Below are positions 17,297-45,928 of a stretch of 64,000 bases of DNA, in pieces. The stretch comes from an archaeon (lineage in GTDB: Archaea > Nanobdellota > Nanobdellia > SCGC-AAA011-G17 > GW2011-AR17): NCBI GenBank assembly GCA_018653605.1, contig JABHYY010000041.1, positions 2,874 to 66,873 on the forward strand, given 5' to 3'. Position numbers and translations under genes: made by a program. The notes below the pieces were generated by a model that did no database searches, had not been told where the DNA came from, and was given only the letters and a program-made list of their open reading frames with translations. The stretch's first letter is position 1. Each line of letters starts with the position of its first letter.

Positions 17297-18508
17297 ATGG
17301 TAAAAAAAGGAGTTGATAGTTTTTTTGATGATTTTCTGAAAAAGGAACCTTTGTTTAAAGATAAGTCTGTATTGCAAGCTAATTATAGTCCAGATAATAT
17401 TCCTCATAGGGAAGAACATATTGAAAAGGTTGCTGGAATATTAGCTCCTGCTCTTAGAGTTGAAAAGCCATCTAATATGTTTATTTATGGGAAAACAGGT
17501 TCTGGCAAGACTTTAGTTGTTAAGCATGTAACTGAAAGTATGGAAAAGATTGCTGAAAAAAATGGTCTTGCTATAAAAATATTTTATTTGAATTGTAAAA
17601 TGAAAAGAGTTGCTGATACTGAATATAGGTTGATTGCTGAAATGGCTAGAGCTTTAGGTGTTGAAATACCTGCAACTGGTTTGCCTACAGATGAAGTTTA
17701 TAGAATTTTTGTTGATAATTTAGAGAAGAGAAAGATTTTGTTAGTTTTAATATTAGATGAGATTGATCAGTTGGTTTCAAAAGCAGGAGATCAAGTTTTG
17801 TATTCTTTAACTAGGTTTAATTCTGAATTAAAAAATAGTTTGATTTCAATTGTTGGAATAAGTAATGATTTAATGTTTACAAATTATTTAGATCCGAGAG
17901 TTAAAAGTTCTTTATCTGAAGAAGAGTTGGTTTTTCCTCCTTATAATGCAATTCAATTGCAAGCAATATTGAAAGAAAGAGCTAAAGATGCTTTTAGGGA
18001 AGGAGTTATTGTTGATGGGGTTTTAGAAAAGTGTGCTGCATATGCTGCAAGGGAACATGGTGATGCAAGAAGAGCTTTAGAATTATTAAGGGTTGCTGGT
18101 GAATTAACTGAAAGAAAAAATAGTAAACAAATTAGTATAGATATATTAGATGAAGCTGAAGAGAAGGTTGAAAGAGATAGAGTTCATGATATTATTTTAA
18201 GTCAACCTAAACAATCACAAATTACTTTGTTAGCAATATTTGAAGCTGTAAAACAAATTGGTAACAAACCTTTATTTACAGGGGATGTATATGAGTTGTA
18301 TAAAGAATTATGTTTTAAAGTAAAGATTAAACCTCTTACACAAAGGCGTATTTCGGATCTTGTTGCTGAGCTTGATATGCTTGGAATAATTCATGCAAAA
18401 GTTATTAGTAAAGGAAGATATGGTCGAACAAGACAGTTTGGGTTGGGTGTACCTCCTTCAACAGTTCCGAAACTTGAAAAGTTGTTGAAAGAGGTTTTAA
18501 ATGTCTGA
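17297..18508 (+). CDS. cdc6: Orc1/Cdc6 replication initiator
   Basis: Walker A IYGKTGSGKTLVVKHV, Walker B LVLILDEIDQL, AAA+ lid and C-terminal winged-helix. 403 aa. A TATA-like ttaaatag lies about 25 bp upstream of the ATG, suggesting a leaderless transcript. Confidence 0.9.
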   Translation: MVKKGVDSFFDDFLKKEPLFKDKSVLQANYSPDNIPHREEHIEKVAGILAPALRVEKPSNMFIYGKTGSGKTLVVKHVTESMEKIAEKNGLAIKIFYLNCKMKRVADTEYRLIAEMARALGVEIPATGLPTDEVYRIFVDNLEKRKILLVLILDEIDQLVSKAGDQVLYSLTRFNSELKNSLISIVGISNDLMFTNYLDPRVKSSLSEEELVFPPYNAIQLQAILKERAKDAFREGVIVDGVLEKCAAYAAREHGDARRALELLRVAGELTERKNSKQISIDILDEAEEKVERDRVHDIILSQPKQSQITLLAIFEAVKQIGNKPLFTGDVYELYKELCFKVKIKPLTQRRISDLVAELDMLGIIHAKVISKGRYGRTRQFGLGVPPSTVPKLEKLLKEVLNV

Positions 18509-19964
18509 AATTAAAAAATTAGTTGGTTTTTTGTTTGAAAAGAATTACATAGTTACACCTGAAGTTTTGAAAAGTGTTCCGAGTGATTTTAATTTTGATA
18601 TTTTTTATGAAAATGTTGGTTCTACTATGAAAAGGCAAGATAAAGGGGTAGTTTTTGATAAAAGTTTGTTGTTTGTTGAGGAAGATGAAGTAAAAACTAA
18701 TTTGAAAATTGTTTGGAATTATGATAAAGAACCTGGTAAAGTTGAAGTAAAAGATTTTGTAACTTATTATAAGAATAGATATAATCAATTAAAAAAAATT
18801 TTAATGCAAAGAGAAGGGTTACAAGGTTGTGTTTCAATTTCAAGGGCTTTAAGAAAAGGTTCTGATGAAGTTGTTTCAATAATTGGTTTTGTTTATAATG
18901 TTGGAATTACAAAGTCAGGTCATATTATGTTGGAGTTAGAAGATCCTACTGGAAAAATAAAAGTTTTGTTGAGTAATAAAAATAAAGAGCTAATGGAACT
19001 TGGTAAGGAGATTGTTCACGACGAGGTTATTGGTGTTAGTGGAGGAACAGGGAGTGATATTATTTTTGCAAGAGATGTTTATTTACCAGATATTGCTTTG
19101 AAAGAATATAAAAAATGTGCTGATGATGTTAATGTAGTTTTTGCAGCCGATATGCATATTGGTAGTACTTTATTTATTCCTGAAGATTTTGAAAGGTTTG
19201 TTAAGTGGTTGAATATGGAATATGGTGATGAAGAACAAAAAGAGATAGCAAAAAAAGTGAAGTATTTATTTTTTGCTGGAGATATTGTTGATGGTGTTGG
19301 AATTTATCCTGGGCATGAGAAGGAAACAAATATTACAGATATTGTTGAACAGTATAATGTTTGTTTTGATTATATTTCTAGAATTAGAAAAGATATTAAG
19401 ATTGTTATTTGTGGTGGGAATCATGATGCTTTAAGATTGTCTGAACCTCAACCTGCTTTGAATAGAGAGTTTGCAGCAAAGTTGTATAGTTTGCCTAATG
19501 TACATATGGTAACAAATCCTTCTATAATAAATATTCATGCTGTTGATGGATTTGTTGGGTTTGATGTTTTATTATATCATGGAATGGGTTTTGATTATTA
19601 TGTTAACAATGTTGATTATATAAGAAATAATGGTGGATATGATAGAGCTGATTTAATGATGGAATTTTTGTTAAAGAAAAGGCACCTTTGTCCGACGCAC
19701 ATTGCAGGTTTGTCAATGCCTGATATAGAGAGTGATCCTTTAGTTATTGAACAAGTTCCTGACTTTTTTGTATCAGGACATATGCATCATGATGTGTTGG
19801 TTGGTAATTATAAAAATGTTTGTTTAGTTGGGTGTGGTAGTTTTCAAAGCATGTCTTCTTTTCAAGAAAAAATGGGACATGAAAACATAATCCCTTCAAA
19901 AGTTCCAATTATTAATCTTAAAACAAGAAAAATAAAAGTTTTAGATTTTAGTGAAACAGACTGA
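18501..19964 (+). CDS. polB: DNA polymerase II (PolD) small subunit DP1
   Basis: Calcineurin-like/Mre11-type phosphoesterase motifs (FAADMHIGS, FFAGDIVDG, ICGGNHDA) after an N-terminal OB-like region. Overlaps the orc1 stop by 8 nt, as in the operon form. Confidence 0.85.
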   Translation: MSEIKKLVGFLFEKNYIVTPEVLKSVPSDFNFDIFYENVGSTMKRQDKGVVFDKSLLFVEEDEVKTNLKIVWNYDKEPGKVEVKDFVTYYKNRYNQLKKILMQREGLQGCVSISRALRKGSDEVVSIIGFVYNVGITKSGHIMLELEDPTGKIKVLLSNKNKELMELGKEIVHDEVIGVSGGTGSDIIFARDVYLPDIALKEYKKCADDVNVVFAADMHIGSTLFIPEDFERFVKWLNMEYGDEEQKEIAKKVKYLFFAGDIVDGVGIYPGHEKETNITDIVEQYNVCFDYISRIRKDIKIVICGGNHDALRLSEPQPALNREFAAKLYSLPNVHMVTNPSIINIHAVDGFVGFDVLLYHGMGFDYYVNNVDYIRNNGGYDRADLMMEFLLKKRHLCPTHIAGLSMPDIESDPLVIEQVPDFFVSGHMHHDVLVGNYKNVCLVGCGSFQSMSSFQEKMGHENIIPSKVPIINLKTRKIKVLDFSETD

Positions 19965-32600: not shown

Positions 32601-34447
32601 TTCCTGGAAACTCTACACAGAATGGAACTTTCTATAGATATTTAGATACTGATGATAATGGAGCTACTGGTTGTACTGCGAATGGTGGTAGTGAAGGTGA
32701 TATTGATTTAGATGGATATGATTATAAAATTGTAATGCAAGGTACTTGGAATGGAACTAGTAGTAACAATGTTTTAAGTGCATATGAATGTGCTGATTCA
32801 ACAGCGAATACTTGGGCGCCTAAGAGTGCAGCTTTAACATTTAAAGATGACTTCTGTTTAATGGAAGGTGGTCCTGGTTCTCAAGGGATTAATGCAGTTA
32901 TTTTAACTAAAAATGATTTTGGAATTGGTAGTGATAATTTAAGAATTTATATTACAACTGTGTTTGATGATGAAACAGATCCTATTGATACATTAGGTCC
33001 ATTTTATTTTACTCCTGGATCTATTGATTTTATAGGTGAGGATTGTTTTGGATTTGTTGATAAGGATGGAGATGGTGATCTTCCAAGTGATGATGCTGAT
33101 TGTTCATTTATTAATAATTTAGGATTTATGCCTTTTGAAGATTGTGGAGATGGTATTGATAACAATGCAGATGGTTTAACTGATTGTAATGATTATATGT
33201 GTACTTTTACACCAATGTGTAATGGGAATTTTGGATTTAGTGCAAGTGGAACTGATAATACTGCACCACAAGTAATTTATCATACAGTTGATGCTTTTGA
33301 TATAGGTGCATTTGTTAAGTTTGATACAAATGAACCTGCAAATGGAAGTGTGTTGTTTTATTCAAATGATTCAACTTGTACAACCTTGAATAAGAGTTTA
33401 CATGACACTGGTGACCCTATGTGTATTGGTGCATGGTGTGACTTTGATGATTATAAATTATGGCATGATTTACCAATTGATAATTTTGCTGGAGCACCGC
33501 CTGCTTGGAAATTAGGTTATGATTTGACTAATGGAACAACTTATTTCTATAGGTATAAAGTATGTGATCCTGATAGTAACTGTGCTACAAGTGCTTGTGT
33601 TAACTTTACAACTAAAGGAATTCAGCCTCAATATTATTTTGATATGGAACCACCTACAGGATTTTCTGTAAAAATGCCTTGGGATATTGAAGGAAGTGGT
33701 TTTGCAAAACAAGTTAATTTTAGTGTTGCAAAAAATATTGATATTAATATTACATGTGCTGATGCTGGTTATGAAATTAGATTAGTTGGTGCTGACATTA
33801 AAGGTGCACAAGATCTTGATGTAAGTAGTATTGTTTGTAGTGGATCAACTGGTTTGATTGGTATGACTTCAACTGTTTGGAATCAGTTATTGTTTGGATT
33901 GAGTGTTGATTATGTTGAAATTACTTGGGCTGTTGAAGAAGGTGCGACAACTGCACAACACTGTGATAATGATGGTTTGAATTGTGTTGATGTAAATGAT
34001 TATTTAGATTGTGTTACTACTGATACTTCCTGGACATGTAAAATTCCTTTAACTTTAGGATTCTCTACTTACAAAGTTGTAACTCCTACAGGTGAGGTTG
34101 CGTCTGCTACTGTTTCTGCTGGAAGTGGTGGAGCTACTGCAGAAGGTCTTTCTAATGATGAAGAGGAAGAAGAGGAAGAGGCTGATAATATTGTTGAAGA
34201 AGTTGTTGATGATGTAGCTGAAGCTGTTGATGAAGGTGTACAAAGAGTTAGTGAGTTTGTTGGAGATATTGTTGGTGAGGAAGTTGTTCAGAATACTTGG
34301 GTTTGGGTTGTTGTAGGTGGGTTGCTTGGATTAGGTGTTATAACTTTTGTTGTTTTGAAAAAAACAGGTTGTTGTAAACCTAAGAAAAAAGCTAAGAAGA
34401 AAGTTAGTAAGAAAGTGTCTAAGAAGAGAAAGGTTAAAAAACATTAA
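26606..34447 (+). CDS. Giant (2613 aa) surface protein: N-terminal signal-anchor, five tandem ~190-aa sequon-rich modules, Cys-rich region, TSP3-like motifs, FN3-like module, C-terminal acidic stretch + TM + polybasic tail
   Basis: Repeated modules each start FFETFTGPGVNVSRFT / FFETFTPPVVNVSRFT / FYDTFTGVLNNSRWT... and end GY(V/L)T(I/V)DDLNY. There are many NxS/T sequons. The Cys-rich region is paralogous to the previous gene (DCQDPVCSSDPMC, DCNDYMCTFTPMC). The C-terminus is a poly-Glu stretch (DEEEEEEEADN), then QRVSEF, then a TM helix (WVWVVVGGLLGLGVITFVV), then a KK-rich tail. Confidence 0.8.
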   Translation: MLKGVRGNLHSILLVGLIVIVFAGLFYGGITGFYTSPFGGGPIPFNNFDQFDTSAINLSLYQLTLVVGDPGVSSTLNVSVNSNFLFNVTHTGTTVGSGATKLYINTNIQQANVYTYINMTDTSSTVSASAEASSGIELSDDSFTRGACYLNLANTSQFRLVASNITGPVPYANVGAGVGNLSLQYDVPTTMINCTFRWAGGVQSILVPTNLNVINIKPKLFADLDRPAGGPGPINGSGQVESYFDFWNVTAVLPAAPPPPPATMEQPFFETFTGPGVNVSRFTMPAQMNGFNFSQSNNMIVMNGTTTNTELFMSLSNANAISISTQLTLSSVFNLTGNIGVAGTDSVLYKLGLAGTPTSSYCAMDLKFDGTYYFCADGNCTVVPKGWGNLTFDYQPIGTLVTCTYTNNMTVVERTTVGGHTTSTITNTLHISNASDSGYVTIDDLNYTVAVAPPVVVFENPFFETFTPPVVNVSRFTVPTPVPGFNFSQSAGMIVMNGTAVGLNPVTILDNVNAISIVSSTILSSVFNLTGSVANVGTDATTYRFGLFSGSPSFCNVALKQSGSYQFCANKNCTGIPKGWGNLTFTFDPAGGLVTCTFTNNVTVVSRTITGSHTSSTIRNGLIISNVSDSGYLTIDDLNYSIVVAAPPVSEQPFYDTFTGVLNNSRWTGANPLAPGFNFSLGNNMIVMNGTAVGLAAFSAFSSKININVVNPIEVRSDFNLTGNIANVGTDSVRYLLVLTNGAGPSTFCTINIDNVSQLVCANSNCTAITSTTGTLSAYYNHGSNLANCSFIDGETVVGRTIAANHGTITISNQLSISNISDSGYLTVDNLNYSSNVPNPPSAAAAPDTLGEFTEAFTGKNIDGNFFNAPSNSKGLVITQNNTLIITGATVGSDAFAYLNSQDVTDATDDYVFSVVTNLTGTVTGGKKVRAELYTRPDEASPRDGCRLQLSDNVYTICHRDSGNCSVVPSGVGTMIYSYDKSVALLSCAFNSTNYTVVSNLSIAVEDGPVYLAGYVQSTGDTLNLTFDDLSYLPGEQASLLTEFYETFDGASPNFGLFDSGDTVGSGINAIQNNALIVSGTASSTNSNFHLPTTNAVDVSDSFIVSAYVNVTSVVPSGLIAAELFNEDVAEDNYGCMLLSTDGSSYSVCTDGGALNCSIVSASEGNLTYYRHKTSNKVYCLFDPVGAGSTVVVSETLNVQVGPIYMRGYVQNSGASIVAIYDNLNYTTGEMTLPGGSPPEPDEGFGMCSSFNGNQASCLSSSDNVVCAWLNPGQEWCSPTSSGCCDQVSCQAYNGDITGCNNVASDLGCSWNDNQYNQNMWCPISSSNPYMPNGMPVIGTNIGCCTSEMCSDAAGTNQTYCDGSETNFMNSICSWETQATNPYCPDATGCCGLPDCGDVTTQTDCEYLMSKGQSCDWSGSICSSGGYDSYDGADSCVDGGGTWNGTACETPDYTDEASNARCWFADNQVSVCGNITGCVYCVAGSGYAGIANETSFCFNKQANWCEGHSPGAFAEGDPEAMTCSDIQLGVTCDCGPVPGCHWTNSSATTGAFCSSGVPQCDLDYDSLEFQQCEDATTSGDCNNLAADYFLPCTWNTGENACLFDFMAGGSGDQKGSMDFEFTDIMDEENCQFAGGSWNNVVIDSYGNTDSWCDFGFGAGMDTCNNSCWACEMQSDGTGWGSSTLAQNECETSNAVVNGCEFISFGGTQGMGDRWGWCDYPGGSEFFGGSCETMCYDCFGDDMCTTSAADCGWTEDPYGGGWCDPSSLANLQDPTLNCLAAKTETQCGTLADETVCQWNSTYVIDPFNGQSMSVCIEDGASPEICFMPGDEDENGLADCQDPVCSSDPMCGFGMGFGGEMMTDSFMLPPGMEQDLCFAYDDTNQSTCEAYVINQTLVFNGSTRGFAGLPAHLNNQVLCYYHTAPSGAQETEWCDPVFHEMMMGDMDNAPPIMLGTDATGDASSIDCLDITELGIKNEMQKMVIGVPVVNITDFAGCDKKIPGNSTQNGTFYRYLDTDDNGATGCTANGGSEGDIDLDGYDYKIVMQGTWNGTSSNNVLSAYECADSTANTWAPKSAALTFKDDFCLMEGGPGSQGINAVILTKNDFGIGSDNLRIYITTVFDDETDPIDTLGPFYFTPGSIDFIGEDCFGFVDKDGDGDLPSDDADCSFINNLGFMPFEDCGDGIDNNADGLTDCNDYMCTFTPMCNGNFGFSASGTDNTAPQVIYHTVDAFDIGAFVKFDTNEPANGSVLFYSNDSTCTTLNKSLHDTGDPMCIGAWCDFDDYKLWHDLPIDNFAGAPPAWKLGYDLTNGTTYFYRYKVCDPDSNCATSACVNFTTKGIQPQYYFDMEPPTGFSVKMPWDIEGSGFAKQVNFSVAKNIDINITCADAGYEIRLVGADIKGAQDLDVSSIVCSGSTGLIGMTSTVWNQLLFGLSVDYVEITWAVEEGATTAQHCDNDGLNCVDVNDYLDCVTTDTSWTCKIPLTLGFSTYKVVTPTGEVASATVSAGSGGATAEGLSNDEEEEEEEADNIVEEVVDDVAEAVDEGVQRVSEFVGDIVGEEVVQNTWVWVVVGGLLGLGVITFVVLKKTGCCKPKKKAKKKVSKKVSKKRKVKKH

Positions 34448-34463
34448 ATTCTTTATTATTTGT

Positions 34464-36293
34464 ATGAGGTGGTACTTAATTATTTGTTTTATAGTAATAT
34501 TAATGTTTAGTGTTAGTGCTCTTCCTGCACAGCCTTTTACTTTTGTTTGTGATGGTGAAATTTGTGATGAGGAAGATAGTGGGGATTATGAAATTCTTTT
34601 TAATACTGGTGGAAGAGGTGACTCCTATGCTGAAACAGAAGATGGTTATCCTGTAATGCTTGATAAGAAAAAGATTTATTTTGCTGAGCAGGGTTCTGAT
34701 GGGAAGTTAAGACCTACAAGGCATAAGATGGGAACTGCTGATCCTGAAAAGTTGAAGTTAATTAAAATTGCTGAGATGGATAGAAAAAGATTGATGGAGA
34801 TACCACCTGAGTTCCGTCCTGAAAGACCTTTGGATGATAGGCAAGAAGCTTTGAGGAAAAAGATTTTGCGTGAGAGAAGGTTGATGGAAGAGAACAGTGT
34901 TACTGGTGGGGTGGTTGCTGAGGAAGGAAGTTCTTTGAAAGTGTTAGTTGTGTTTATGGAATTTTCTGATCAAAAACATTCTGTTGATTTTGATTCTTTT
35001 GATAGTTATTTAGAAGGGTTGTCTGATTATTATTATTCTGAATCTAATGGAGATTTATTGTTAGATTTTTATCCTGTAAAGAATTGGTATTTGGCGCAAA
35101 ATGAGATGGGTTATTATGGTGGTGATTATGAAAGTAAAGCGGATGATCTGGTTGATGAGGCTGTTAATATGATTGATTTGTCTGGTGGTTATGATGATGA
35201 TGGAGATGGTGTTTTAGATGGGCCTTTATTAGTTATACATGCTGGTGCTGCTGATGAAACTGTTGGAGGTAATACTGATTTGATTTGGAGTTTTTATTCT
35301 TCTACTGGAGGTTTGGAATCAAATGGTGTTGAAGTGTTGGATTATGTTCTTTTGAGTGAAGAGTTTGTTCTTGGTACTGCTGCACATGAGTTTGGACATT
35401 TTTTGGGTTTGCCTGATTTGTATGATACTGATCCTGATGATGGTGAGTCAAAAGGTTGTGGTTTTTTTTGTTTGATGGGTTATGGTTGTTATCTTAGTGA
35501 GATTTCTGGGTTGAGTCCTTGGAGTCAATATTATTTAAGTTGGGATGGTGGGTTGCTTGAGGTTGATGGTTCTGGTACTTTTGAAATTGGTTATAGTGGT
35601 TCTTTGAAAGTTCCTATTGATGTTAATGAATATTTTTTAGTTGAGAATAGAGAAGAAAGTTCTTTTTTTGGTGAAAAAGTTGGTGGAGTTTTTATTTGGC
35701 ACATTGATGAGGCTGTTATGGAAGAACAAGGTAGTTGGATGGGTTGTAAAGGTTCTAGATTGGATTGTAATGTTGTTAATGCAAATGAAGTTCATAAGTT
35801 AGTTGATTTTGAAGAGGCTGATAATTTTGGATTGGATGAGGATAGTGATGTGAGTGATTATGGTGGTGAGGATGATGTGTGGGGTAGTAGTGCTGTATTT
35901 TATTCTGGTTCAGCTCCAAGTACTTTTACTTATGCTGGCGTTGAAAGTGGAGTTTCAATTGAGGTTTTGAGTTCTATTGGAGAGTTGATGGAGGTAGGTG
36001 TTAGTTTTGGTGGTGAGGAGAGTGTTGCTGAAGGAGTAAGTGGTGTTTCAAGTCCTGAGGTTAGTGGTGAAGATTATTCTGATGATCGTGATGTTATGCA
36101 GTTTGCTGGTTCTATTGATGGTGAAGATGTAGATGATGTTCCTTTTGAAGAAGAAGAGGAAGTTAGTGGAGATAGGGATGGTACTACAACTTCTGAAGAA
36201 GGTGGTTCTAATTTGTTAATATGGATAATTATTGGGGTTATTATTTTAATTGTTATTTCTATTATTAGTATTTTGTTTTTGTCTAAAAGCTGA
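34464..36293 (+). CDS. Secreted, membrane-anchored zinc metallopeptidase (HEFGHFLGLPD motif; M6/M7-like)
   Basis: Signal peptide MRWYLIICFIVILMFSVSALPA. AAHEFGHFLGLPDLYD is a HExxHxxGxxD zinc motif as in snapalysin/InhA-type peptidases. C-terminal poly-Glu then a TM helix (LLIWIIIGVIILIVISIISILFL). Confidence 0.7.
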   Translation: MRWYLIICFIVILMFSVSALPAQPFTFVCDGEICDEEDSGDYEILFNTGGRGDSYAETEDGYPVMLDKKKIYFAEQGSDGKLRPTRHKMGTADPEKLKLIKIAEMDRKRLMEIPPEFRPERPLDDRQEALRKKILRERRLMEENSVTGGVVAEEGSSLKVLVVFMEFSDQKHSVDFDSFDSYLEGLSDYYYSESNGDLLLDFYPVKNWYLAQNEMGYYGGDYESKADDLVDEAVNMIDLSGGYDDDGDGVLDGPLLVIHAGAADETVGGNTDLIWSFYSSTGGLESNGVEVLDYVLLSEEFVLGTAAHEFGHFLGLPDLYDTDPDDGESKGCGFFCLMGYGCYLSEISGLSPWSQYYLSWDGGLLEVDGSGTFEIGYSGSLKVPIDVNEYFLVENREESSFFGEKVGGVFIWHIDEAVMEEQGSWMGCKGSRLDCNVVNANEVHKLVDFEEADNFGLDEDSDVSDYGGEDDVWGSSAVFYSGSAPSTFTYAGVESGVSIEVLSSIGELMEVGVSFGGEESVAEGVSGVSSPEVSGEDYSDDRDVMQFAGSIDGEDVDDVPFEEEEEVSGDRDGTTTSEEGGSNLLIWIIIGVIILIVISIISILFLSKS

Positions 36294-36347
36294 TATGTAT
36301 GTTTAACTATAGGAAAGTTTAATTAATGTTTTTTAGATTGTATTGAT

Positions 36348-39300
36348 ATGGCTGAATTTTCTGAGAGAATAGGGAAGTATTTGGAGACGATTAATGTAGA
36401 GGTTCTAAAGTGTTATGATATTGCTAATGAAGCCAAAAGCAAAGGATTTGACCCAAATAAGAGGGTTATGATGCCTCTTGCTAAGAACATGGCAGAGAGA
36501 GTAGAGGGTTTGATTGGTTCTGTTGCTCCAGAGATTTTGGGTAAGGGTGTGCCTAAGAGGATTCAAGAGCTTGAGAAAGAGTATGGGATGCAGGATTGGA
36601 GAGTTGCTCTCAAAATTGCTGAAGAGGTTGCTCTTGAAAAATTTTGTAAGTTTGAAGATAAAATTCGTGCAATGGAGATTGGTATTAGGACAGGGTTTGC
36701 ATATGTTACTGTTGGTGTTGTTGCTTCACCTTTAGAAGGTTTTATTGGATTAAAAGTTCGTGAAAGGATGGATGGACAGGGTGAGTATCTTGCTTTGATT
36801 TATGGTGGTCCGATTCGTAGTGCTGGTGGAACTGGTGCTAGTGTTTCTATTTTGATTGCTGATTATGTTAGAAAGATAATGGGGTATAAAGAGTATGATG
36901 CAACTGAGAAGGAAGTTAAAAGAGCTTATTCTGAATTGTGTGATTATCATGAGCGAGTTACTAACTTGCAGTATTTTCCTTCTGAAGAAGAGATAAAGTA
37001 TTTGGTTGAACATTTGCCTATTCAGTTAGATGGTGATCCTTCTGAAAAATGGGATGTTTCAAATTATAAAGATCTTTCTCGTCGTGTTGCTAATAGAATT
37101 AGTAATGGGTTTTGTTTGATTACTGCTGAATGTTTGGGTTTGAAAGCTCCTAAAGTTTGGAAACAATTGGCTAAGTGGGGAAAGGACATGGATATGGAAC
37201 AATGGAATTTTATGAAAGATTTTGTTGATTTACAAAAAGAGGTTAGGGCTCGTGGTGTTAAGGTTAGTAAAAAAGTTGAAGCAAAATTAAAGCCTGATAC
37301 AAATTACATTAAAGATTTGGTTGCTGGTCGTCCTGTGTTTACTCATCCTATGAGAAATGGTGGGTTTAGGTTGCGTTATGGTCGTGGTCGGGTTTCTGGT
37401 TTTTCTGCTGATAGTGTTAATCCTGCAACAATGGTTGTTAGTGATGATTTTATTGCTGTTGGTACACAGTTTAAAGTTGAAAGGCCAGGTAAAGCAACTG
37501 TTGCAAATGTTTGTGATACTATTGATGGGCCAATTGTTAAATTGAAAAATGGTTCTGTTGTTTGTTTGAATACTTATGAAGATGCTCGGTTGGTTGCGAA
37601 AGAAGTTGATGAAATAATTTATCTTGGTGATTTGTTAGTGAACTATGGTGATTTTTTGGATAGAGCACATAAGTTGATCCCTTGTGGTTTTGTTGAAGAA
37701 TGGTGGGCTATGCTTGTTGAGAAAAAAATAAGTGAAGGTAGTCAAAGTATTGATGGTGTTGAAGATGTGATTAAGTTCCCTCTGAAAAATAGATTAAGTT
37801 TAGATCAAGCTATTGAATATAGTGAGAAGTTAGGTGTTCCTTTGTATCCAAAGTATATTTATTTCTGGGATTCAATTTCTGTTGATGATTTTAAAAAATT
37901 GTATCTTGTTTTGAAGGATTCTTCTTTTGATGGAATGAAGATGGTTGTTGCTGATCTTTCTGTGAAAAGAAGTTTGGAGTTGATTGGTTGTGAACATAAG
38001 TTGGTTGGTGATGAACATTTAATTATTGATGATGCTAGAGCTTTGGTTTTCAATCTTGGTGGGTTTGAGAAAGAGTTGGTTGTAAAGGATGATGTTTTGG
38101 AGATGGTGAATTCTTTGTGTAAGTTTGAAGTTAAAGATAAGTGTGGAACTTTTGTTGGTGCTCGGATGGGTCGACCTGAAAAAGCTAAGATGAGAAAGAT
38201 GAAAGGTAGTCCTCATGTTTTGTTTCCTGTTGGTGATGAGGGTGGAAGGTTGAGATGTTTCCAGAGTTCTTTAGAGGCTGGAAAAGTTTCTAGCAATTTT
38301 CCTTATTATATTTGTGAGTGTGGGAAGCAAACAATTTATCCTGTTTGTGAAAATTGTGGTAAGAGAGGGAAGCAAAAATTTTGGTGTAGAGGTTGTAAGG
38401 AGTTGAAGGATGAAGAAGAGTGTGAAAAACATGATAAGTGTTCTAAGTCTGTTTATCAACAGATTGATATTAAACATTATTTTTATAAGGCACTTGAGGT
38501 GATTGGTTCTCGTCAGTATCCTAGTTTGATTAAAGGTGTTCGTGGTATGAGTAGTGTTGGAAAGATTCCTGAACATTTGGTTCGTGGTATTTTAAGAGCA
38601 AAAAATTCTGTGCATGTGAATAAAGATGGAACTATTCGGTATGATATGATTGAATTGCCATTGACTCATTTTAAACCTAAGGAGATTGGAACTCCTATTG
38701 AAAAATTGAAAGAGTTAGGGTATTTGAAAGATGTTTATGGTGAAGATTTGGTTAATGATGAACAAATTTTGGAGTTGATTGCACAGGATGTTGTTTTGCC
38801 TGCACCTGTTGATGCTCCTGAACAAGGTGCTGATGAAGTTTTGTTTAGGGTTGGTGGGTTTATTGATGATTTGTTGGTTCATTTGTATAAAATGGATCCT
38901 TATTATAAGTTTGAAAAGAAAAGTGATTTGATTGGACATTTGATTGTTGCAATGAGTCCGCATACTTCTGCTGGTATTGTTTCTCGGATAATTGGTTTTT
39001 CTAAAGCTCAAGGTTTGTATGCTCATCCTTTGTTGCATAGTATTATGCGTAGAGATTGTGTGCATCCAAGTACTGAATTGGTTATTGGTGAAGACAAAAA
39101 ATTAGTTAAAATTGGAGATTATGTTGAAGATTTGATAAAAAGGGGTGCAAAAACAAAAAGAATTGATCTGGTTGGCACTTTGTCTGTTGAAAATATTGAT
39201 GATGTTTGTGTTTATGGTGTTGATTCTAAAACTTTTGAGTTTAAAGAAAAAAAAGTTAAGTCTTTTATTAAAGGACCTGTTAACAATAAATGGGTTGTTG

Positions 39301-40310
39301 TAAAATCTTTGAAGGGGAAGGAATTTGTTATGACGCCAGATCATAATCACCTTTCAATTGTTAATGGAAACTTTAAAATTATTAAGGCTAAAGAGGTTTC
39401 TGTAAAGGATAAGTTGATTGTGTGGGATGGAAAAGTGTTGTCAGAGCAAATAGTTGAAGTAAGTAGTTTATCTGACCCTGTGAATAGTTATTGTTTGGAT
39501 GTTGAAGATGAAGAGTTGATTGAAAAGAGTGTTCTTTGGGGAGATAATATAATTAATCTTAGATGTGATGGTGATGAAGCAGGGTGTATGTTGTTAATGG
39601 ATTGTTTATTGAATTTTTCAATGAAATATTTGCCTAACACTCGAGGGATTAGTCAGGATGCTCCTTTGGTTTTAACTTCTAGGTTAGTTCCTTCTGAAGT
39701 TGATGATATGGTGTTTAATATGGATATTTGTGATCATTATCCTTTAGAGTTGTATGAGGCTGCTGAAGAGTATAAGTATCCTTGGGATATTAAGATACAT
39801 ATTTTAGAGAATGATTTGGGTACTGAGAAACAGTATGAAGGTATGATGTTTACACATGATACTTCTGATTTTAATAATGGTGTGTTGGTTAGTGCGTATA
39901 AGACTTTGCCTTCAATGAGGGAGAAAGTGTTGGGTCAAATGGAAGTTGGTCGGAAGATTCGTGCTGTTGATGTTGATGATGTTGCTCGGTTGGTTATTGA
40001 AAGGCATTTTATTCGTGATATTAAAGGTAACTTGCGTAAGTTTTCTCAGCAAGGTTTTAGATGTGTAAAGTGTAATGAAATTTATCGTCGTCCTCCTTTA
40101 GCTGGAAAGTGTTTAGCTTGTTCTGGAAAGTTAGTGTTTACAATTGCTGAGGGTTCTATTTGTAAATACTTACAGCCTGCATTGGATCTTGCTAAGAAAT
40201 ATAATCTTCCTGCTTATTTGCAACAGAGTTTGGTTTTGCTTAAGAATAGAATTGAAAGTGTGTTTGGAAAAGATCCTGAAAAGCAAGAAGGTTTGGGTAA
40301 GTGGTTCTAG
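36348..40310 (+). CDS. polC: DNA polymerase II (PolD) large subunit DP2, with intein-like insertion
   Basis: 1320 aa. Conserved DP2 N-terminus (MAEFSERIGKYLETINVEVLKCYDIANEA...), a Zn-finger cluster (CECGKQTIYPVCENCG...), the catalytic-region motif ...HSIMRRD | insertion | LRCDGDEAGCMLLMDCLLNFS, and C-terminal Zn-binding (CVKCNEIYRRPPLAGKCLAC). Confidence 0.9.
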   Translation: MAEFSERIGKYLETINVEVLKCYDIANEAKSKGFDPNKRVMMPLAKNMAERVEGLIGSVAPEILGKGVPKRIQELEKEYGMQDWRVALKIAEEVALEKFCKFEDKIRAMEIGIRTGFAYVTVGVVASPLEGFIGLKVRERMDGQGEYLALIYGGPIRSAGGTGASVSILIADYVRKIMGYKEYDATEKEVKRAYSELCDYHERVTNLQYFPSEEEIKYLVEHLPIQLDGDPSEKWDVSNYKDLSRRVANRISNGFCLITAECLGLKAPKVWKQLAKWGKDMDMEQWNFMKDFVDLQKEVRARGVKVSKKVEAKLKPDTNYIKDLVAGRPVFTHPMRNGGFRLRYGRGRVSGFSADSVNPATMVVSDDFIAVGTQFKVERPGKATVANVCDTIDGPIVKLKNGSVVCLNTYEDARLVAKEVDEIIYLGDLLVNYGDFLDRAHKLIPCGFVEEWWAMLVEKKISEGSQSIDGVEDVIKFPLKNRLSLDQAIEYSEKLGVPLYPKYIYFWDSISVDDFKKLYLVLKDSSFDGMKMVVADLSVKRSLELIGCEHKLVGDEHLIIDDARALVFNLGGFEKELVVKDDVLEMVNSLCKFEVKDKCGTFVGARMGRPEKAKMRKMKGSPHVLFPVGDEGGRLRCFQSSLEAGKVSSNFPYYICECGKQTIYPVCENCGKRGKQKFWCRGCKELKDEEECEKHDKCSKSVYQQIDIKHYFYKALEVIGSRQYPSLIKGVRGMSSVGKIPEHLVRGILRAKNSVHVNKDGTIRYDMIELPLTHFKPKEIGTPIEKLKELGYLKDVYGEDLVNDEQILELIAQDVVLPAPVDAPEQGADEVLFRVGGFIDDLLVHLYKMDPYYKFEKKSDLIGHLIVAMSPHTSAGIVSRIIGFSKAQGLYAHPLLHSIMRRDCVHPSTELVIGEDKKLVKIGDYVEDLIKRGAKTKRIDLVGTLSVENIDDVCVYGVDSKTFEFKEKKVKSFIKGPVNNKWVVVKSLKGKEFVMTPDHNHLSIVNGNFKIIKAKEVSVKDKLIVWDGKVLSEQIVEVSSLSDPVNSYCLDVEDEELIEKSVLWGDNIINLRCDGDEAGCMLLMDCLLNFSMKYLPNTRGISQDAPLVLTSRLVPSEVDDMVFNMDICDHYPLELYEAAEEYKYPWDIKIHILENDLGTEKQYEGMMFTHDTSDFNNGVLVSAYKTLPSMREKVLGQMEVGRKIRAVDVDDVARLVIERHFIRDIKGNLRKFSQQGFRCVKCNEIYRRPPLAGKCLACSGKLVFTIAEGSICKYLQPALDLAKKYNLPAYLQQSLVLLKNRIESVFGKDPEKQEGLGKWF
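39057..39557 (+). mobile_element. Hint-domain (mini-intein-like) insertion in PolD DP2 catalytic motif
   Basis: About 167 aa inserted between RRD and (LR)CDGDE. It starts with Cys (CVHPSTELVIGEDKKLVKIGDYVEDLI, block A-like), contains VMTPDHNHLSIV...KDKLIVWDG (block B TxxH) and a block F/G-like YCLDVEDEE...SVLWGDNIIN. No LAGLIDADG/HNH endonuclease domain is evident. The C-terminal junction is non-canonical (IIN then L-R then C). Confidence 0.45.
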
Positions 40311-43504: not shown

Positions 43505-45928
43505 ATGGATCCAAATAATTTAACACCTGCAATGAGACAGTATGCTGATCTTAAACAGAAGTATGCTGATTGTGTAATTATGTTTAGAATGGGTGATTTT
43601 TATGAAATGTTTTATGAAGATGCTAAGACTGCATCAAAAGAGTTAGAGATTACTTTGACATCTAGGGGAAAGGGTGAGAAAAAAGCTCCTTTGGCTGGAA
43701 TACCTCATCATGCTTTGGAACAGTATTTAGGTAGGCTTGTTAAGAAAGGTTATAAAGTTGCAATTTGCGAACAGTTAGAAGATCCTAAGTTAGCAAAGGG
43801 TTTGGTTAAACGAGGTGTTGTTCGAGTTGTTACACCTGGAACACTTATTGGGTCTGGTGATCTTGATGCTAGTTCTAATAATTATTTGATGTCAGTGTTT
43901 GCAAATGGTGATGAGTATGCTGCAAGTTTTTGTGATGTTTCAACTGGAGAGTTTTTTGTTTTTTCTGGTGGTTTTGATTTGGTTAAGGATGAGGTTTTGA
44001 GGTTTAGACCTGCTGAGTGTGTTTTGCCTGAAAGTTTGTTGGTTGATCAGGAGTTGGTTAAGAATTTGAAAAGGTTGGGTGTGTTTGTGACTGATCATAG
44101 TGATAGGTTTTTTGGTTTTGATTATGCAAAGTCTACTTTGTTAAGACATTTTAAAGTTCTTGGTTTGGATGGGTTTGGAGTTTCTAATGATATTGAGGTA
44201 AAAGTTGCTGGTGGGTTGTTGAATTATGTTTTGTCTACTCAAATGAATGATTTGTTGCACATTAAAAGTTTGAAAAAAGTTGTTAAGCAAGATAGAATGT
44301 TTTTGGATGCTGTTGCAATTAAGAATTTGGAGTTGGTTGAGGGTGTTTCTGAGAAAGGAAGTTTGTTTTATGTTTTGAATAGGACTTGTACTAACATGGG
44401 TGTTAGGTTGTTAAAGAAATGGTTGAAAAGTCCTTTAATGAATAGAGTTAAGATTGAAGAGAGGTATGATGCTGTTGAGTTTTTTGTTAAAAATTTAATT
44501 GTTAGGGGTGATTTGCAGAATGTTTTGAAAGGTGTTGGTGATGTTGAAAGGTTGGTTGGTAAGGTTGGTTATGGTAATTGTGGTGGTCGTGATTTGGTTG
44601 CTTTGAAAAATTCTCTTTTGAATGTTCAAAAAATTAATTTTGATTCTGGGTTGTTGAAGGAGTTGAGTTGTTTTGGTGATTTTCAAGGTGTTATTGATAT
44701 TGTTTCTGAGTCAATAAAAGATGATTGTGCTGTTTCTATTAGGGAAGGTGGAGTGATTAAGTTAGATTATAATTCTAGGTTGAAAGAGTTACATGATATT
44801 AAGTTTGGTGGGAAAAAGTTTATTTCTCGTTTAGAGGCTCAAGAGAGGGAGAGGACTGGGATTAAGAATCTTCGTATTGGTTTTAATCGTGTTTTTGGAT
44901 ATTATATTGATGTTTCTAAGTCTAATTTGCATCTTGTTCCTAAAGATTATATTCGAAAACAAACTCTTGTTAATAATGAGAGGTATGTTACTGAAGATTT
45001 GAAGAAAGAGGAAGAGAAAATCTTGACTGCTGAAGAGAAGATTAAAAATTTGGAGTATGAATTGTTTATGGCTGTTGTTGAAAAGATTAAGGATTATATT
45101 TCTGTTCTTCAGGATGTTGCTTCTAAAGTTGCTGAGTTGGATGTTCTTTTGAGTTTTGCTTTTGTTAGTGTTGAGAATAATTATGTTCGTCCTGTTTTAG
45201 ATGATTCTGATGTTTTGGAGATTAAAGATGGTAGGCATGCTGTTGTTGAGCTTGAAGAGGATTATGTTCCTAATGATACTAGTTTGAATGTTGGTGAGGT
45301 TATGATTATTACTGGGCCTAACTTTGCTGGTAAAAGTTGTTATATGAGACAGGTTGCTTTGATTGTTATTATGGCACAGGTTGGTTGTTTTGTTCCTGGT
45401 GTTGTTAAAATGGGGTTGGTTGATAGAGTTTTTACTAGGGTTGGTGCGCAAGATGATTTGTTTTCTGGGAAAAGTACTTTTATGGTTGAAATGGAAGAGG
45501 TTGCTAATATTTTGAATAATGCTTCTTCTAAAAGTTTGATAGTGTTTGATGAGGTTGGAAGGGGAACTTCTACTTATGATGGTGTTTCAATTGCATGGGC
45601 TGTTGTTGAGTATGTTTATAATAAAGTTAAAGCTAAAACTATGTTTGCAACTCATTATCATGTTTTGAATTCTATGGCTAGTGATTTAGATGGTGTTAAG
45701 AATTATAATATTTCTGTGAAAGAAGAGAAGGATGAGATTGTGTTTTTGCGAAAGTTGGTTGCTGGTGGTACTGATAAGAGTTTTGGTGTTTATGTTGCTA
45801 AGTTGGCTGGTGTTCCTTTGGATGTTGTTTCTCGTGCTCGGGAGATTCAGGAGAAGCTTGAGTCAAAAGATAAGTTTTCTGGTCGGGTTGGTGGGAAGAT
45901 GTTGGATAAGCAGAAGAGTTTGTTTTAA
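43505..45928 (+). CDS. mutS: DNA mismatch repair protein MutS (bacterial type)
   Basis: N-terminal mismatch-binding domain TPAMRQYADLKQKYADCVIMFRMGDFYEMFYEDA. ATPase domain with GPNFAGKS, STFMVEMEE, FDEVGRGTSTYDG and FATHYH. Confidence 0.9.
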   Translation: MDPNNLTPAMRQYADLKQKYADCVIMFRMGDFYEMFYEDAKTASKELEITLTSRGKGEKKAPLAGIPHHALEQYLGRLVKKGYKVAICEQLEDPKLAKGLVKRGVVRVVTPGTLIGSGDLDASSNNYLMSVFANGDEYAASFCDVSTGEFFVFSGGFDLVKDEVLRFRPAECVLPESLLVDQELVKNLKRLGVFVTDHSDRFFGFDYAKSTLLRHFKVLGLDGFGVSNDIEVKVAGGLLNYVLSTQMNDLLHIKSLKKVVKQDRMFLDAVAIKNLELVEGVSEKGSLFYVLNRTCTNMGVRLLKKWLKSPLMNRVKIEERYDAVEFFVKNLIVRGDLQNVLKGVGDVERLVGKVGYGNCGGRDLVALKNSLLNVQKINFDSGLLKELSCFGDFQGVIDIVSESIKDDCAVSIREGGVIKLDYNSRLKELHDIKFGGKKFISRLEAQERERTGIKNLRIGFNRVFGYYIDVSKSNLHLVPKDYIRKQTLVNNERYVTEDLKKEEEKILTAEEKIKNLEYELFMAVVEKIKDYISVLQDVASKVAELDVLLSFAFVSVENNYVRPVLDDSDVLEIKDGRHAVVELEEDYVPNDTSLNVGEVMIITGPNFAGKSCYMRQVALIVIMAQVGCFVPGVVKMGLVDRVFTRVGAQDDLFSGKSTFMVEMEEVANILNNASSKSLIVFDEVGRGTSTYDGVSIAWAVVEYVYNKVKAKTMFATHYHVLNSMASDLDGVKNYNISVKEEKDEIVFLRKLVAGGTDKSFGVYVAKLAGVPLDVVSRAREIQEKLESKDKFSGRVGGKMLDKQKSLF

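What the first reader, a model, noticed from the sequence alone, without database searches (positions are those of the whole stretch)
39057..39563. Hint/intein-like insertion in the PolD DP2 catalytic CDGDE motif with a non-canonical C-terminal junction
About 167 residues interrupt the conserved RR(N/D)-CDGDE catalytic motif. The insert starts with Cys, has a canonical block B (TPDHNH) and a block F/G-like end (WGDNIIN), but lacks any endonuclease domain: it is a mini-intein. Residues L-R then lie between the terminal Asn and the CDGDE cysteine. Either the intein uses an unusual C-terminal boundary, or the local extein motif differs from my recollection (RRNCDGDED), or this is a decaying, non-splicing intein retained inside an essential catalytic loop. 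The last would be remarkable.
Basis: partly seen in the sequence, partly recalled or inferred. Interest (0 to 1): 0.6.

Follow-up and report, generated by a model that had tools for sequence, protein, structure and literature searches.

The report
PolD intein ending in arginine
The replicative DNA polymerase gene of this DPANN archaeon carries a well-conserved 169-residue mini-intein in its catalytic loop that ends in arginine, not the asparagine (or glutamine or aspartate) that every studied intein uses to cut itself out, and dozens of uncultured archaea carry relatives with the same arginine.

Summary
Window 39057-39563 encodes a 169-aa Hint-fold mini-intein inserted between RRD and CDGDE of PolD DP2.

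The "extra" Leu-Arg are the intein's own last two residues (block G positions 6 and 7). The intein therefore ends Leu-Arg|Cys instead of His-Asn|Cys.

This is neither an error nor decay:
- The identical 1320-aa protein is on 11 independently assembled contigs.
- dN/dS of the insert (0.19) matches the extein (0.17).
- 17 clusters from an unbiased HMMER search and 54 metagenome loci end in Arg|CDGDE. All six Arg codons are used.
- Hosts include Woesearchaeota, Pacearchaeota, Nanoarchaeia and Thermoplasmatota.
- Cys1, block B Thr-x-x-His, a block F Tyr-Cys and Cys+1 are invariant.
- Many members carry LAGLIDADG endonucleases under purifying selection.
- Some inteins are more alike than their host genes.
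- An Asn-ending intein nests inside the clade, and an intein-free allele exists in the same host lineage.

Most likely this is an active, mobile intein lineage whose last cleavage step cannot be canonical Asn cyclisation. I found no description of it in the literature. The chemistry is untested.

The parts
36348..40310 (+). PolD large subunit DP2 gene (1320 aa precursor, stop codon included)
   Evidence: Pfam PolC_DP2_N, PolC_DP2_central and PolC_DP2_cat, with the catalytic domain split in two by the insert. NCBIfam NF003103/TIGR00354 above cutoff.
36348..39056 (+). N-extein, ending ...HPLLHSIMRRD
   Evidence: Identical local motif in the intein-free homologue P0003.
39057..39563 (+). 169-aa mini-intein (Hint domain, no endonuclease), Cys1 to Arg169
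   Evidence: sequence; PDB intein hits; AF2 pLDDT 94.8, TM about 0.8 to solved mini-inteins; TIGR01445.
39057..39089 (+). Block A, CVHPSTELVIG. Cys1 (39057-39059) is the N-terminal nucleophile
   Evidence: Cys1 is invariant in 44/44 distinct Arg-type and 7/7 Asn/Gln-type inteins at this site.
39333..39344 (+). Block B, Thr93-Pro-Asp-His96 (B:7 Thr, B:10 His)
   Evidence: Thr and His are invariant in every Arg-type sequence that covers the column (43/43) and in 25/25 in A2.
39489..39494 (+). Block F, Tyr145-Cys146. The Cys occupies the place of the usual block F Asp (F:4)
   Evidence: Invariant in 44/44 Arg-type inteins. Positional assignment is by alignment to canonical block F (YDIEV in P0039).
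39546..39563 (+). Block G, Asn164-Ile-Ile-Asn-Leu168-Arg169. G:6 is Leu in place of His, and G:7 is Arg (AGA, 39561-39563) in place of Asn
   Evidence: Gap-free alignment with Asn- and Gln-ending inteins of the same site. Arg is encoded by all six codons in relatives. TIGR01443 intein_Cterm does not match.
39564..39578 (+). Cys+1 and the catalytic CDGDE motif of the C-extein (the two Asp correspond to D956 and D958 of P. abyssi DP2)
   Evidence: The role of the loop is taken from PMC4996933.
39564..40310 (+). C-extein (rest of the catalytic domain, Zn finger, C-terminus)
18501..19964 (+). Context: PolD small subunit DP1 (OB fold, calcineurin-like phosphoesterase, DNA_pol_E_B), intact
   Evidence: Pfam. 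An intact partner subunit argues that PolD is in use.

Best explanation
The insert is a functional mini-intein of a previously undescribed, widespread lineage of PolD-DP2 inteins whose last residue is an invariant arginine.

Inferred mechanism. The precursor DP2 cannot polymerise, because the intein sits in the solvent-exposed catalytic loop. The intein removes itself after translation. Steps 1 and 2 are canonical class-1 chemistry: an N-S acyl shift at Cys1, helped by block B Thr93 and His96, followed by trans-thioesterification to Cys+1. Step 3, cleavage of the Arg169-Cys+1 peptide bond, cannot be the usual Asn succinimide formation and must use another route.

The route I consider most likely is cyclisation of the arginine itself. 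The side-chain N-epsilon would attack its own backbone carbonyl and form a six-membered delta-lactam. That ring has the same size and geometry as the glutarimide formed by the C-terminal Gln of the Pyrococcus PolII inteins at this same site. Gln to Arg is one nucleotide change (CAR to CGR).

Two alternative routes for step 3:
- An N-S acyl shift at Cys+1 followed by hydrolysis or aminolysis, as in type A BILs or Ntn autoprocessing.
- Attack by the invariant block F Cys146.

What is shown: homology, fold, exact junctions, selection, clade-wide conservation, and signs of mobility. What is inferred: that the intein splices, and all of the step-3 chemistry.
For: 1. It is an intein.
- PDB and NCBIfam sequence hits.
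- AF2 pLDDT 94.8 with full-length superposition on TvoVMA, Pab/PhoCDC21-1, PhoPolII (7oec) and PhoRadA inteins.
- Longer clade members pass Pfam Intein_splicing and LAGLIDADG_3 gathering scores.

2. The sequence is real: the same protein is on 11 independent contigs.

3. The Arg is selected.
- In an HMMER search of 1.84 billion representatives that was unbiased for the terminal residue, 17 clusters at this site end in Arg, 4 in Asn, 5 in Gln and none in Lys.
- 54 metagenome loci use AGA, AGG, CGA, CGC, CGT and CGG.
- Within the window's own subclade the codon is AGA or CGT.

4. The splicing machinery is kept. Cys1, Thr93, His96, Tyr145-Cys146 and Cys+1 are invariant over 44 distinct sequences that are only 23-78% identical.

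5. Purifying selection.
- Omega of the intein is 0.19 against 0.17 for the extein (window vs L008), and 0.28 against 0.15 (window vs L001).
- Other pairs give Hint 0.07-0.22 and endonuclease or linker region 0.08-0.26.

6. Behaviour of a mobile element.
- 39 complete inteins of 169-518 aa, with several independent endonuclease losses.
- Intein identity of 74-75% exceeds the 57-60% of the flanking extein in L012/L068 and L062/L065.
- The intein-free allele P0003 is 72-76% identical to the window group's exteins, as close as the group members are to each other.

7. Arg and Asn interchange. P0009, which ends in SSN, nests inside the Arg clade and has the same extein type as L026.

8. The host enzyme is in use. 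The extein is under purifying selection and DP1 is intact in the window. The catalytic loop lies in the DNA-binding crevice (PMC4996933), so a retained domain of 169-518 aa should block it.

9. Chemical precedent. Known inteins at this site already use Gln (PMC8229266; PMC4031507). Arg delta-lactam formation onto its own activated carbonyl is the main side reaction of Arg in peptide synthesis (PMC7352207).
Against: - No splicing assay exists for any member.
- In the intein literature I could search, only Asn, Gln and Asp at G:7 support C-terminal cleavage (PMC4031507).
- A guanidinium group (pKa about 13.8, general knowledge) is a poor nucleophile unless it is deprotonated.
- The lineage also lacks both histidines (F:13 is Lys or Arg; G:6 is aliphatic, Thr, Phe or Pro) that usually assist step 3.
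- The curated C-terminal motif model TIGR01443 does not match.
- Arg invariance among the 54 metagenome loci is partly by construction, because the search pattern required MGN.
- dS is saturated in many pairs, so the omega values are rough.
- The NJ tree is crude.
- All carriers are uncultured MAGs.
Confidence: 0.65

Rival explanations
1. Domesticated, non-splicing Hint insertion. The Arg-ending domain stays in the mature DP2, or splices only under rare conditions, and is conserved for a structural or regulatory role rather than for excision.
For: - Arg cannot perform the known cyclisation chemistry, and TIGR01443 is not matched.
- Strong purifying selection would also fit a domain with a host function.
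- Mini-inteins at conserved sites have been proposed to develop mutualism with their hosts (PMC8229266).
Against: - The insert varies from 169 to 518 aa, with or without an endonuclease.
- It is absent from a closely related allele.
- It is sometimes more conserved than its host gene. These three points describe a mobile element, not a fixed domain.
- Cys1 and Thr-x-x-His are invariant, although a non-splicing domain would not need them.
- It sits in the catalytic loop, inside the DNA-binding crevice.
Confidence: 0.15
2. Cleavage-only autoprocessing, as in BIL or Hedgehog domains. The domain performs the N-S acyl shift and N-terminal cleavage (or forms a stable branched species) without ligation, so DP2 works as two associated fragments.
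For: The step-1 residues are invariant while the canonical step-3 residues are missing. Type B BILs lack block G similarity and only cleave (PMC4031507).
Against: - Cys+1 is present, whereas BILs lack the +1 nucleophile.
- The cut would fall inside the catalytic loop, and the Hint domain would stay attached to the catalytic Asp motif.
- Close relatives at the same site end in Asn or Gln and are ordinary inteins.
- The only apparent two-piece form (L001) is a single-nucleotide variant.
Confidence: 0.07
3. A decaying, dead intein or pseudogene, with replication carried by another polymerase.
For: Non-canonical G:6 and G:7. Loss of the endonuclease.
Against: - The ORF is open.
- Omega of intein and extein is about 0.17-0.19.
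- The same Arg occurs in at least 17 deeply diverged clusters and in 54 loci with six codons.
- Catalytic residues are invariant.
- DP1 is intact.
Confidence: 0.03
4. A sequencing or assembly error, a misplaced junction, or codon reassignment at 39555-39566.
For: None beyond the oddity itself.
Against: - The exact protein is on 11 contigs from different samples and assemblers.
- Relatives at 58-78% identity keep NLR|C.
- The Arg is encoded by both the AGR and CGN codon families.
- Only the given register leaves a nucleophile at +1.
- P0003 fixes the extein junction.
Confidence: 0.01

Closest known systems
Pyrococcus PolII (DP2) mini-inteins: Pab PolII (PDB 2LCJ) and Pho PolII (PDB 7OEC)
   Same: - Same host protein and same insertion point (RRN|CDGDE).
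- Mini-inteins of 166-185 aa without an endonuclease, starting with Cys1 and followed by Cys+1.
- The same Hint fold: the AF2 model against 7oec gives TMq 0.81 and rmsd 2.0 A.
- They already deviate from Asn at the last position.
   Different: - They end His-Gln. Gln can cyclise to glutarimide, and splicing has been demonstrated experimentally.
- They keep the block F and G histidines.
- Sequence identity to the window intein is low (about 17% in the structural alignment; phmmer E 5e-4).
- The window intein ends Leu-Arg and has Cys at the block F Asp position.
Canonical class 1 inteins (e.g. PhoCDC21-1, TvoVMA, PhoRadA)
   Same: Fold, Cys1, block B Thr-x-x-His, Cys+1, insertion in a catalytic motif of a replication protein, and association of relatives with LAGLIDADG homing endonucleases.
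   Different: The C-terminal Asn (G:7) that defines step 3 is replaced by Arg. The penultimate His and the block F His are also absent. TIGR01443 is not matched.
Class 3 inteins (block F Cys nucleophile, WCT triad)
   Same: An invariant Cys at the block F position normally held by Asp.
   Different: The window intein has Cys1, which class 3 inteins lack. B:12 is His98, not Trp. G:5 is Asn167, not Thr. Class 3 inteins still end in Asn.
Bacterial intein-like (BIL) domains and Hedgehog Hint domains
   Same: Hint fold. Some lack block G similarity and use ligation by a free amine (type A BIL) or cleavage only. This is a possible analogy for a step 3 that does not use Asn.
   Different: BILs lack the +1 nucleophile, occur in variable bacterial proteins, and are not tied to homing endonucleases. 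Here Cys+1 is present and the element behaves as a homing intein in an essential archaeal gene.

Membership tests
Intein (Hint superfamily, protein-splicing element) | Hint fold with N- and C-termini brought together | tested here: met
   AF2 pLDDT 94.8 and pTM 0.89. Foldseek top hits are all mini-inteins, with TM about 0.8 and rmsd 2.0-2.8 A over about 175 columns.
Intein (Hint superfamily, protein-splicing element) | In-frame insertion in a conserved host motif, with intein-free homologues that define both junctions | tested here: met
   P0003 reads HPLLHSIMRRD|CDGDEA without an insert. Its extein is 72-76% identical to the window group's.
Class 1 intein | N-terminal Cys/Ser nucleophile and block B Thr-x-x-His | tested here: met
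   Cys1, Thr93 and His96 are invariant in the clade. TIGR01445 scores 31.9 bits against a cutoff of 24.5.
Class 1 intein | Cys/Ser/Thr at +1 of the C-extein | tested here: met
   Cys+1 of CDGDE.
Class 1 intein | C-terminal Asn (rarely Gln or Asp) able to cyclise (block G position 7) | tested here: not met
   Arg169 is at the homologous position. TIGR01443 intein_Cterm gives no hit for the window or for Arg-type P0008, but does hit canonical P0039.
Class 1 intein | Penultimate His (G:6). Usual, but about 5% of active inteins lack it | tested here: not met
   Leu168. Across the clade this position is I/V/L/M/T/A/F/P. The dispensability figure is from PMC4031507.
Class 1 intein | Demonstrated excision and extein ligation | not testable with these tools
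   Needs an expression and mass-spectrometry assay, or metaproteomics.
Homing intein lineage | Relatives carry a homing endonuclease, and the distribution is sporadic or horizontally transferred | tested here: met
   - LAGLIDADG_3 above the gathering score in P0005, P0008, P0013, P0015 and P0021.
- Omega of the middle region is 0.08-0.26.
- Intein identity exceeds extein identity in two pairs.
- An intein-free allele exists.
Class 3 intein | No N-terminal nucleophile, plus the Trp(B:12)-Cys(F:4)-Thr(G:5) triad | tested here: not met
   Only the block F Cys is present. Cys1 is present, B:12 is His98 and G:5 is Asn167.
Bacterial intein-like (BIL) domain | Lacks the +1 nucleophile and sits in non-conserved bacterial proteins | tested here: not met
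   Cys+1 is present and the host is the essential archaeal DP2.
Naturally split intein | Host gene and intein divided into two ORFs | tested here: not met
   The window ORF is continuous. The TAA-ATG in relative L001 is CAA-ATG in L025 and L027, which are 99.8-99.9% identical to it.

The most novel reading that the evidence does not exclude
Arg-ending DP2 inteins splice by a step-3 chemistry never seen in proteins. The C-terminal arginine cyclises (N-epsilon attacks its own carbonyl and forms a six-membered delta-lactam), cutting the Arg-Cys bond. That would be an 'arginine peptide lyase', derived by one nucleotide change from the Gln-ending PolII inteins. Alternatively, the invariant block F Cys or Cys+1 does the cutting in a protease-like step.
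Probability: 0.3. Interest if true: 0.9.

Novelty: new variant of a known kind. Interest (0 to 1): 0.72.

Why it matters
Cyclisation of a C-terminal Asn (rarely Gln or Asp) is treated as the near-universal last catalytic step of protein splicing, and it defines the 'asparagine peptide lyase' class. Here a large, selected and apparently mobile intein lineage in an essential replicative polymerase has an invariant Arg at that position and lacks both helper histidines.

If it splices, inteins have a further, unknown way to break the C-terminal junction. That is of mechanistic interest and could be useful for engineered cleavage and ligation tools. If it does not splice, DPANN and Thermoplasmatota archaea replicate with a polymerase that carries a Hint domain in its active-site loop, which would be just as unexpected.

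Either outcome can be tested directly with one small (169-aa) construct. The result also shows that motif-based intein annotation (TIGR01443, 'HN' ends) misses this lineage's C-terminal boundary.

Tried and rejected
1. Split intein or split DP2. Relative L001 has an in-frame TAA followed by ATG inside the intein. L025 and L027, from contigs of 113 kb and 39 kb and 99.8-99.9% identical to L001, read CAA there. It is a single-nucleotide variant or error, so the idea is rejected.

2. Shifted junctions. Every cyclic shift of the junctions gives a product of the same length, but only the given register leaves a nucleophile at +1 and reproduces RRD-CDGDE as in P0003. Rejected.

3. Codon reassignment or editing of the Arg codon. 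Rejected, because all six Arg codons occur.

4. Class 3 intein. Only the block F Cys fits (see the membership test).

5. Homologous-protein searches.
- With the 52-aa block F/G profile A1: no hit, because the profile is too short for a database of 5.8 billion sequences.
- With the full Hint profile A2: only 2 partial hits.
- The first search gave 3 hits.
- The census therefore rests on the HMMER representative search and on a DNA-pattern scan.

6. Single-sequence AF2 failed (pLDDT 36.6). A3, built from permitted exact substrings, worked.

7. Literature. Searches for Arg-terminated, atypical, non-canonical or new-class inteins found nothing relevant. Absence from this open-access library is not proof of absence from the literature or from InBase.

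8. Rfam scan of the window: no hits.

Full report
**What is there**

The finding lies inside a 1320-aa ORF (window 36348..40310, + strand). This ORF is the large, catalytic subunit DP2 of archaeal family-D DNA polymerase. Pfam finds the N-terminal, central and catalytic DP2 domains, with the catalytic domain split in two. NCBIfam DP2 equivalog models score above their cutoffs.

The split falls in the sequence ...HPLLHSIMRRD | CVHPSTELVIG ... WGDNIINLR | CDGDEAGCML.... An intein-free DP2 fragment found in the first homology search, P0003, reads HPLLHSIMRRD|CDGDEA, which fixes both junctions. The insert is therefore 169 residues, exactly window 39057-39563:
- Cys1 is TGT at 39057-39059.
- Arg169 is AGA at 39561-39563.
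- Cys+1 is TGT at 39564-39566.

**It is a Hint-fold mini-intein**

- The insert alone hits solved inteins by sequence: PhoCDC21-1 6rpq (E 1.8e-8), PabCDC21-1 6rpp (3.9e-7) and Pab PolII 2lcj (4.8e-4).
- It passes the NCBIfam intein N-terminal splicing model (TIGR01445, 31.9 bits against a cutoff of 24.5).
- It scores just under the Pfam Intein_splicing cutoff (30.9 against 35.8).
- A single-sequence AlphaFold run was useless (pLDDT 36.6).
- With a 41-row alignment of relatives (A3) the model reached pLDDT 94.8 and pTM 0.89.
- That model superposes over its whole length on archaeal mini-inteins: TvoVMA 4o1s, Pab/PhoCDC21-1, PhoPolII 7oec (TMq 0.81, rmsd 2.0 A) and PhoRadA.
- The insert has no endonuclease domain.

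**The C-terminal junction**

Inteins at the same DP2 site that end canonically align to the window intein without gaps from block F to the junction. For example, P0039 HNFLMNHSILSKN|C aligns with window KSVLWGDNIINLR|C. In that register Asn167 is block G position 5, Leu168 is G:6 (usually His), and Arg169 is G:7, the position of the catalytic Asn. The Leu-Arg are therefore not extra residues between a terminal Asn and the extein. They are the end of the intein.

No other register works. Every cyclic shift gives a product of the same length, but only this one puts a nucleophile at +1 and regenerates RRD-CDGDE.

**Not an error**

The identical 1320-aa protein is called on 11 contigs from different samples and assemblers (ENA, NCBI GCA_018651505.1, Logan), always in the same gene neighbourhood. 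Relatives keep the same ending:
- A Woesearchaeota MAG (L008, intein 77% identical) reads WGDDIINLR|CDGDE.
- A groundwater contig (L001, 58% identical) reads WGDNILNLR|CDGDE, with CGT instead of AGA for the Arg.

**Not an isolated oddity: a large Arg-ending lineage**

I ran an exhaustive HMMER search with the intein plus 10-aa flanks against 1.84 billion cluster representatives. It returned 48 proteins. Where the junction at this DP2 site is visible:
- 17 clusters (each below 50% identity to the others) end in [ILVMTP]-Arg|C.
- 4 end in Asn.
- 5 end in Gln.
- None ends in Lys.

Related inteins in MCM and RFC genes from the same search end in the canonical His-Asn.

Source names place the Arg-type carriers in Thermoplasmatota, Pacearchaeota and Nanoarchaeia MAGs, besides the Woesearchaeota MAG.

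A DNA-pattern scan of JGI and ENA metagenome contigs for N-x-L-(8 codons)-MGN-TGY GAY GGN GAY GAR gave 66 loci. Of these, 54 are genuine DP2 Arg|CDGDE junctions. All six Arg codons are used, and none of the AGY (Ser) matches is a real intein.

Including the window, L001 and L008, 39 of the Arg-type loci contain the complete intein:
- Lengths run from 169 to 518 aa.
- All are open reading frames, apart from one variant discussed below (L001).
- All have Cys1 and Thr-x-x-His.

One caveat: the scan required an MGN codon, so Arg invariance in this set is by construction. The unbiased evidence is the 17:4:5:0 count above, together with the codon diversity.

**Conservation pattern**

Over 44 distinct Arg-type inteins, and in the 25-row alignment A2 (identity to the window 23-78%), the invariant columns are Cys1, Trp79, Thr93, His96, Ala111, Tyr145, Cys146 and Arg169. 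In the block F/G alignment A1 the only invariant columns are Tyr-Cys and the terminal Arg.

The residues for step 1 (Cys1, block B Thr and His) and step 2 (Cys+1) are therefore all kept. The residues that normally help step 3 are all replaced:
- The block F His is Lys or Arg in the clade (Lys156 in the window).
- G:6 His is aliphatic, Thr, Phe or Pro (Leu168 in the window).
- G:7 Asn is Arg.

The curated C-terminal motif model TIGR01443 accordingly does not match the window intein or Arg-type P0008, although it matches canonical P0039.

The Cys at the block F 'Asp' position is the second most common residue there in inteins generally (PMC4031507). It is shared with the neighbouring Asn/Gln-type inteins at this site. 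The class 3 signature is not met: Cys1 is present, B:12 is His and G:5 is Asn.

**Selection and mobility**

Nei-Gojobori estimates:
- Window vs L008: omega 0.19 for the intein, 0.17 for the extein.
- Window vs L001: omega 0.28 for the intein, 0.15 for the extein.
- Other Arg-type pairs where dS is not saturated: 0.07-0.22 for the Hint domain and 0.08-0.26 for the endonuclease or linker region.

The long members carry LAGLIDADG_3 domains above Pfam's gathering score, and they pass Intein_splicing.

A rough NJ tree shows several independent endonuclease losses. It also places an Asn-ending, endonuclease-bearing intein (P0009...LILSSN|C) inside the Arg clade. P0009 has the same extein type as Arg-type L026.

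In two pairs (L012/L068 and L062/L065) the inteins are 74-75% identical while the flanking, highly conserved extein segments are only 57-60% identical. That is the signature of horizontal transfer.

The intein-free allele P0003 is 72-76% identical to the exteins of the window group, the same range as within that group.

Together these are the marks of a homing intein lineage that goes through invasion, endonuclease loss and removal. Such a lineage can persist in an essential gene only if the intein is removed from the protein.

**Host context**

According to the P. abyssi structure paper, the two Asp of the CDGDE motif (D956 and D958) lie on a solvent-exposed catalytic loop of the second double-psi beta-barrel, inside the DNA-binding crevice. 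The same paper notes that this loop is an intein insertion site in several species (PMC4996933). A retained domain of 169-518 aa there should block the enzyme.

The DP2 extein is under purifying selection, and the partner subunit DP1 is intact 16 kb upstream (window 18501-19964). PolD is therefore evidently in use.

**How it most likely works**

Shown:
- Homology, fold and exact junctions.
- Conservation of the step 1 and step 2 residues.
- Selection on the terminal Arg.
- Behaviour of a mobile element.

Inferred:
- The intein splices.
- Steps 1 and 2 are canonical class-1 chemistry.
- Step 3 is non-canonical.

My preferred route for step 3 is cyclisation of Arg169 through N-epsilon to a six-membered delta-lactam. 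The reasons:
- The atom count from the backbone carbonyl to the attacking nitrogen is the same as for Gln (established stereochemistry). Gln is the natural, experimentally active terminal residue of the Pyrococcus and Methanoculleus PolII inteins at this same site (PMC4031507; PMC8229266).
- Gln-ending relatives exist in the same intein family (P0002, P0023, P0024, P0030, P0044, P0051).
- CAR to CGR is one transition.
- Arg is never replaced by Lys.
- Delta-lactam formation of Arg onto its own activated carbonyl is a well-known reaction in peptide chemistry (PMC7352207).

Against this route: guanidinium is a very weak nucleophile unless it is deprotonated, and no protein example is known to me.

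Two alternatives:
- An N-S acyl shift at Cys+1 followed by hydrolysis or aminolysis, as in type A BILs and Ntn-type autoprocessing.
- Attack of the invariant block F Cys146 on the Arg169 carbonyl.

The sequence data cannot discriminate between these routes.

**Rivals**

- Domesticated non-splicing domain (confidence 0.15). Invariant Cys1 and Thr-x-x-His, variable size, sporadic presence and horizontal transfer are hard to reconcile with it.
- Cleavage-only processing (0.07). It would leave the Hint domain on the catalytic motif.
- Decay (0.03) and error (0.01). Both are effectively excluded.

**Dead ends**

- The apparent split intein in L001 is a single-nucleotide difference, TAA against CAA, relative to two near-identical long contigs.
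- Two of the three word-indexed protein searches gave almost nothing.
- Rfam found nothing in the window.

**Comparison with the known, and novelty**

The closest known elements are the Pab and Pho PolII mini-inteins. They share the host, the site, the fold and the mini-intein architecture, and they are already atypical in ending with Gln. The window intein differs in three ways: it ends Leu-Arg, it lacks both helper histidines, and it has a block F Cys.

The review literature I could read lists only Asn, Gln and Asp at this position. Six full-text searches found no mention of Arg-terminated inteins. This does not exclude an entry in InBase or in a subscription journal.

I therefore rate it a new variant of a known kind. 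It is an intein by descent, fold and position, but it fails the defining C-terminal Asn/Gln/Asp criterion of class 1 (and of classes 2 and 3).

**Verdict**

- Observation: confirmed.
- Interest: 0.72.
- The decisive experiment is a simple splicing assay with mass spectrometry on a 169-aa construct and R169 and C146 mutants.

Noticed in passing
window 20084-26476 and 26606-34447 (+): Two adjacent giant ORFs (2130 and 2613 aa) with no Pfam hit at E<=1e-3. They lie between the DP1 and DP2 genes and are followed by an M6-family peptidase (34464-36293). The same arrangement is seen on the other contigs that carry this DP2. They may be DPANN surface or host-interaction proteins.
   Followed up: no
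window 36000-40300: Very strong GC skew on the coding strand, (G-C)/(G+C) about +0.4 to +0.6, at 30-40% GC. It falls to about 0 in the short non-DP2 stretch after 40300. C is strikingly depleted in the sense strand.
   Followed up: no
P0007, P0014, P0017, P0030 (proteins; junctions): Some DP2 genes with inteins at this site have deviant catalytic motifs after the junction...QPR|CDGEQD...QIR|CDSDED...MPR|CDGDQD and ...ISQ|CDSDE, instead of CDGDE(D/A). These are either diverged DP2 paralogues or tolerated variation next to the catalytic Asp residues.
   Followed up: no
L001 680-685 versus L025 and L027: One short groundwater contig has TAA-ATG inside the intein, which mimics a split intein. Two contigs that are 99.8-99.9% identical read CAA-ATG. 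This is a population variant or an assembly error. The gene caller split the DP2 there.
   Followed up: yes
window 43505-45928, 48930-50579, 59131-60561 (+): A full MutS (domains I-V) and MutL pair, plus a further protein with only MutS domain V, close to DP2 in a DPANN-like genome.
   Followed up: no
window 9268-11562 (+): A 764-aa ORF with weak MtrA-like (PF04208, 28 bits, just above cutoff) and pterin-binding DUF4346 (below cutoff) matches. This is unexpected for a small symbiotic archaeon.
   Followed up: no
NCBIfam NF011302 (PRK14714) and NF011303 (PRK14715): Two NCBI DP2 'equivalog' models include an intein within the model itself. Positions 922-1110 of NF011302 align to the window intein with its 10-aa extein flanks, E 6.7e-21. 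Intein-bearing DP2s are therefore named as plain DP2, and the intein boundary is not annotated.
   Followed up: partly
whole window: No Rfam family reaches its gathering score anywhere in the 64 kb, so no tRNA, rRNA or other known RNA was detected.
   Followed up: no
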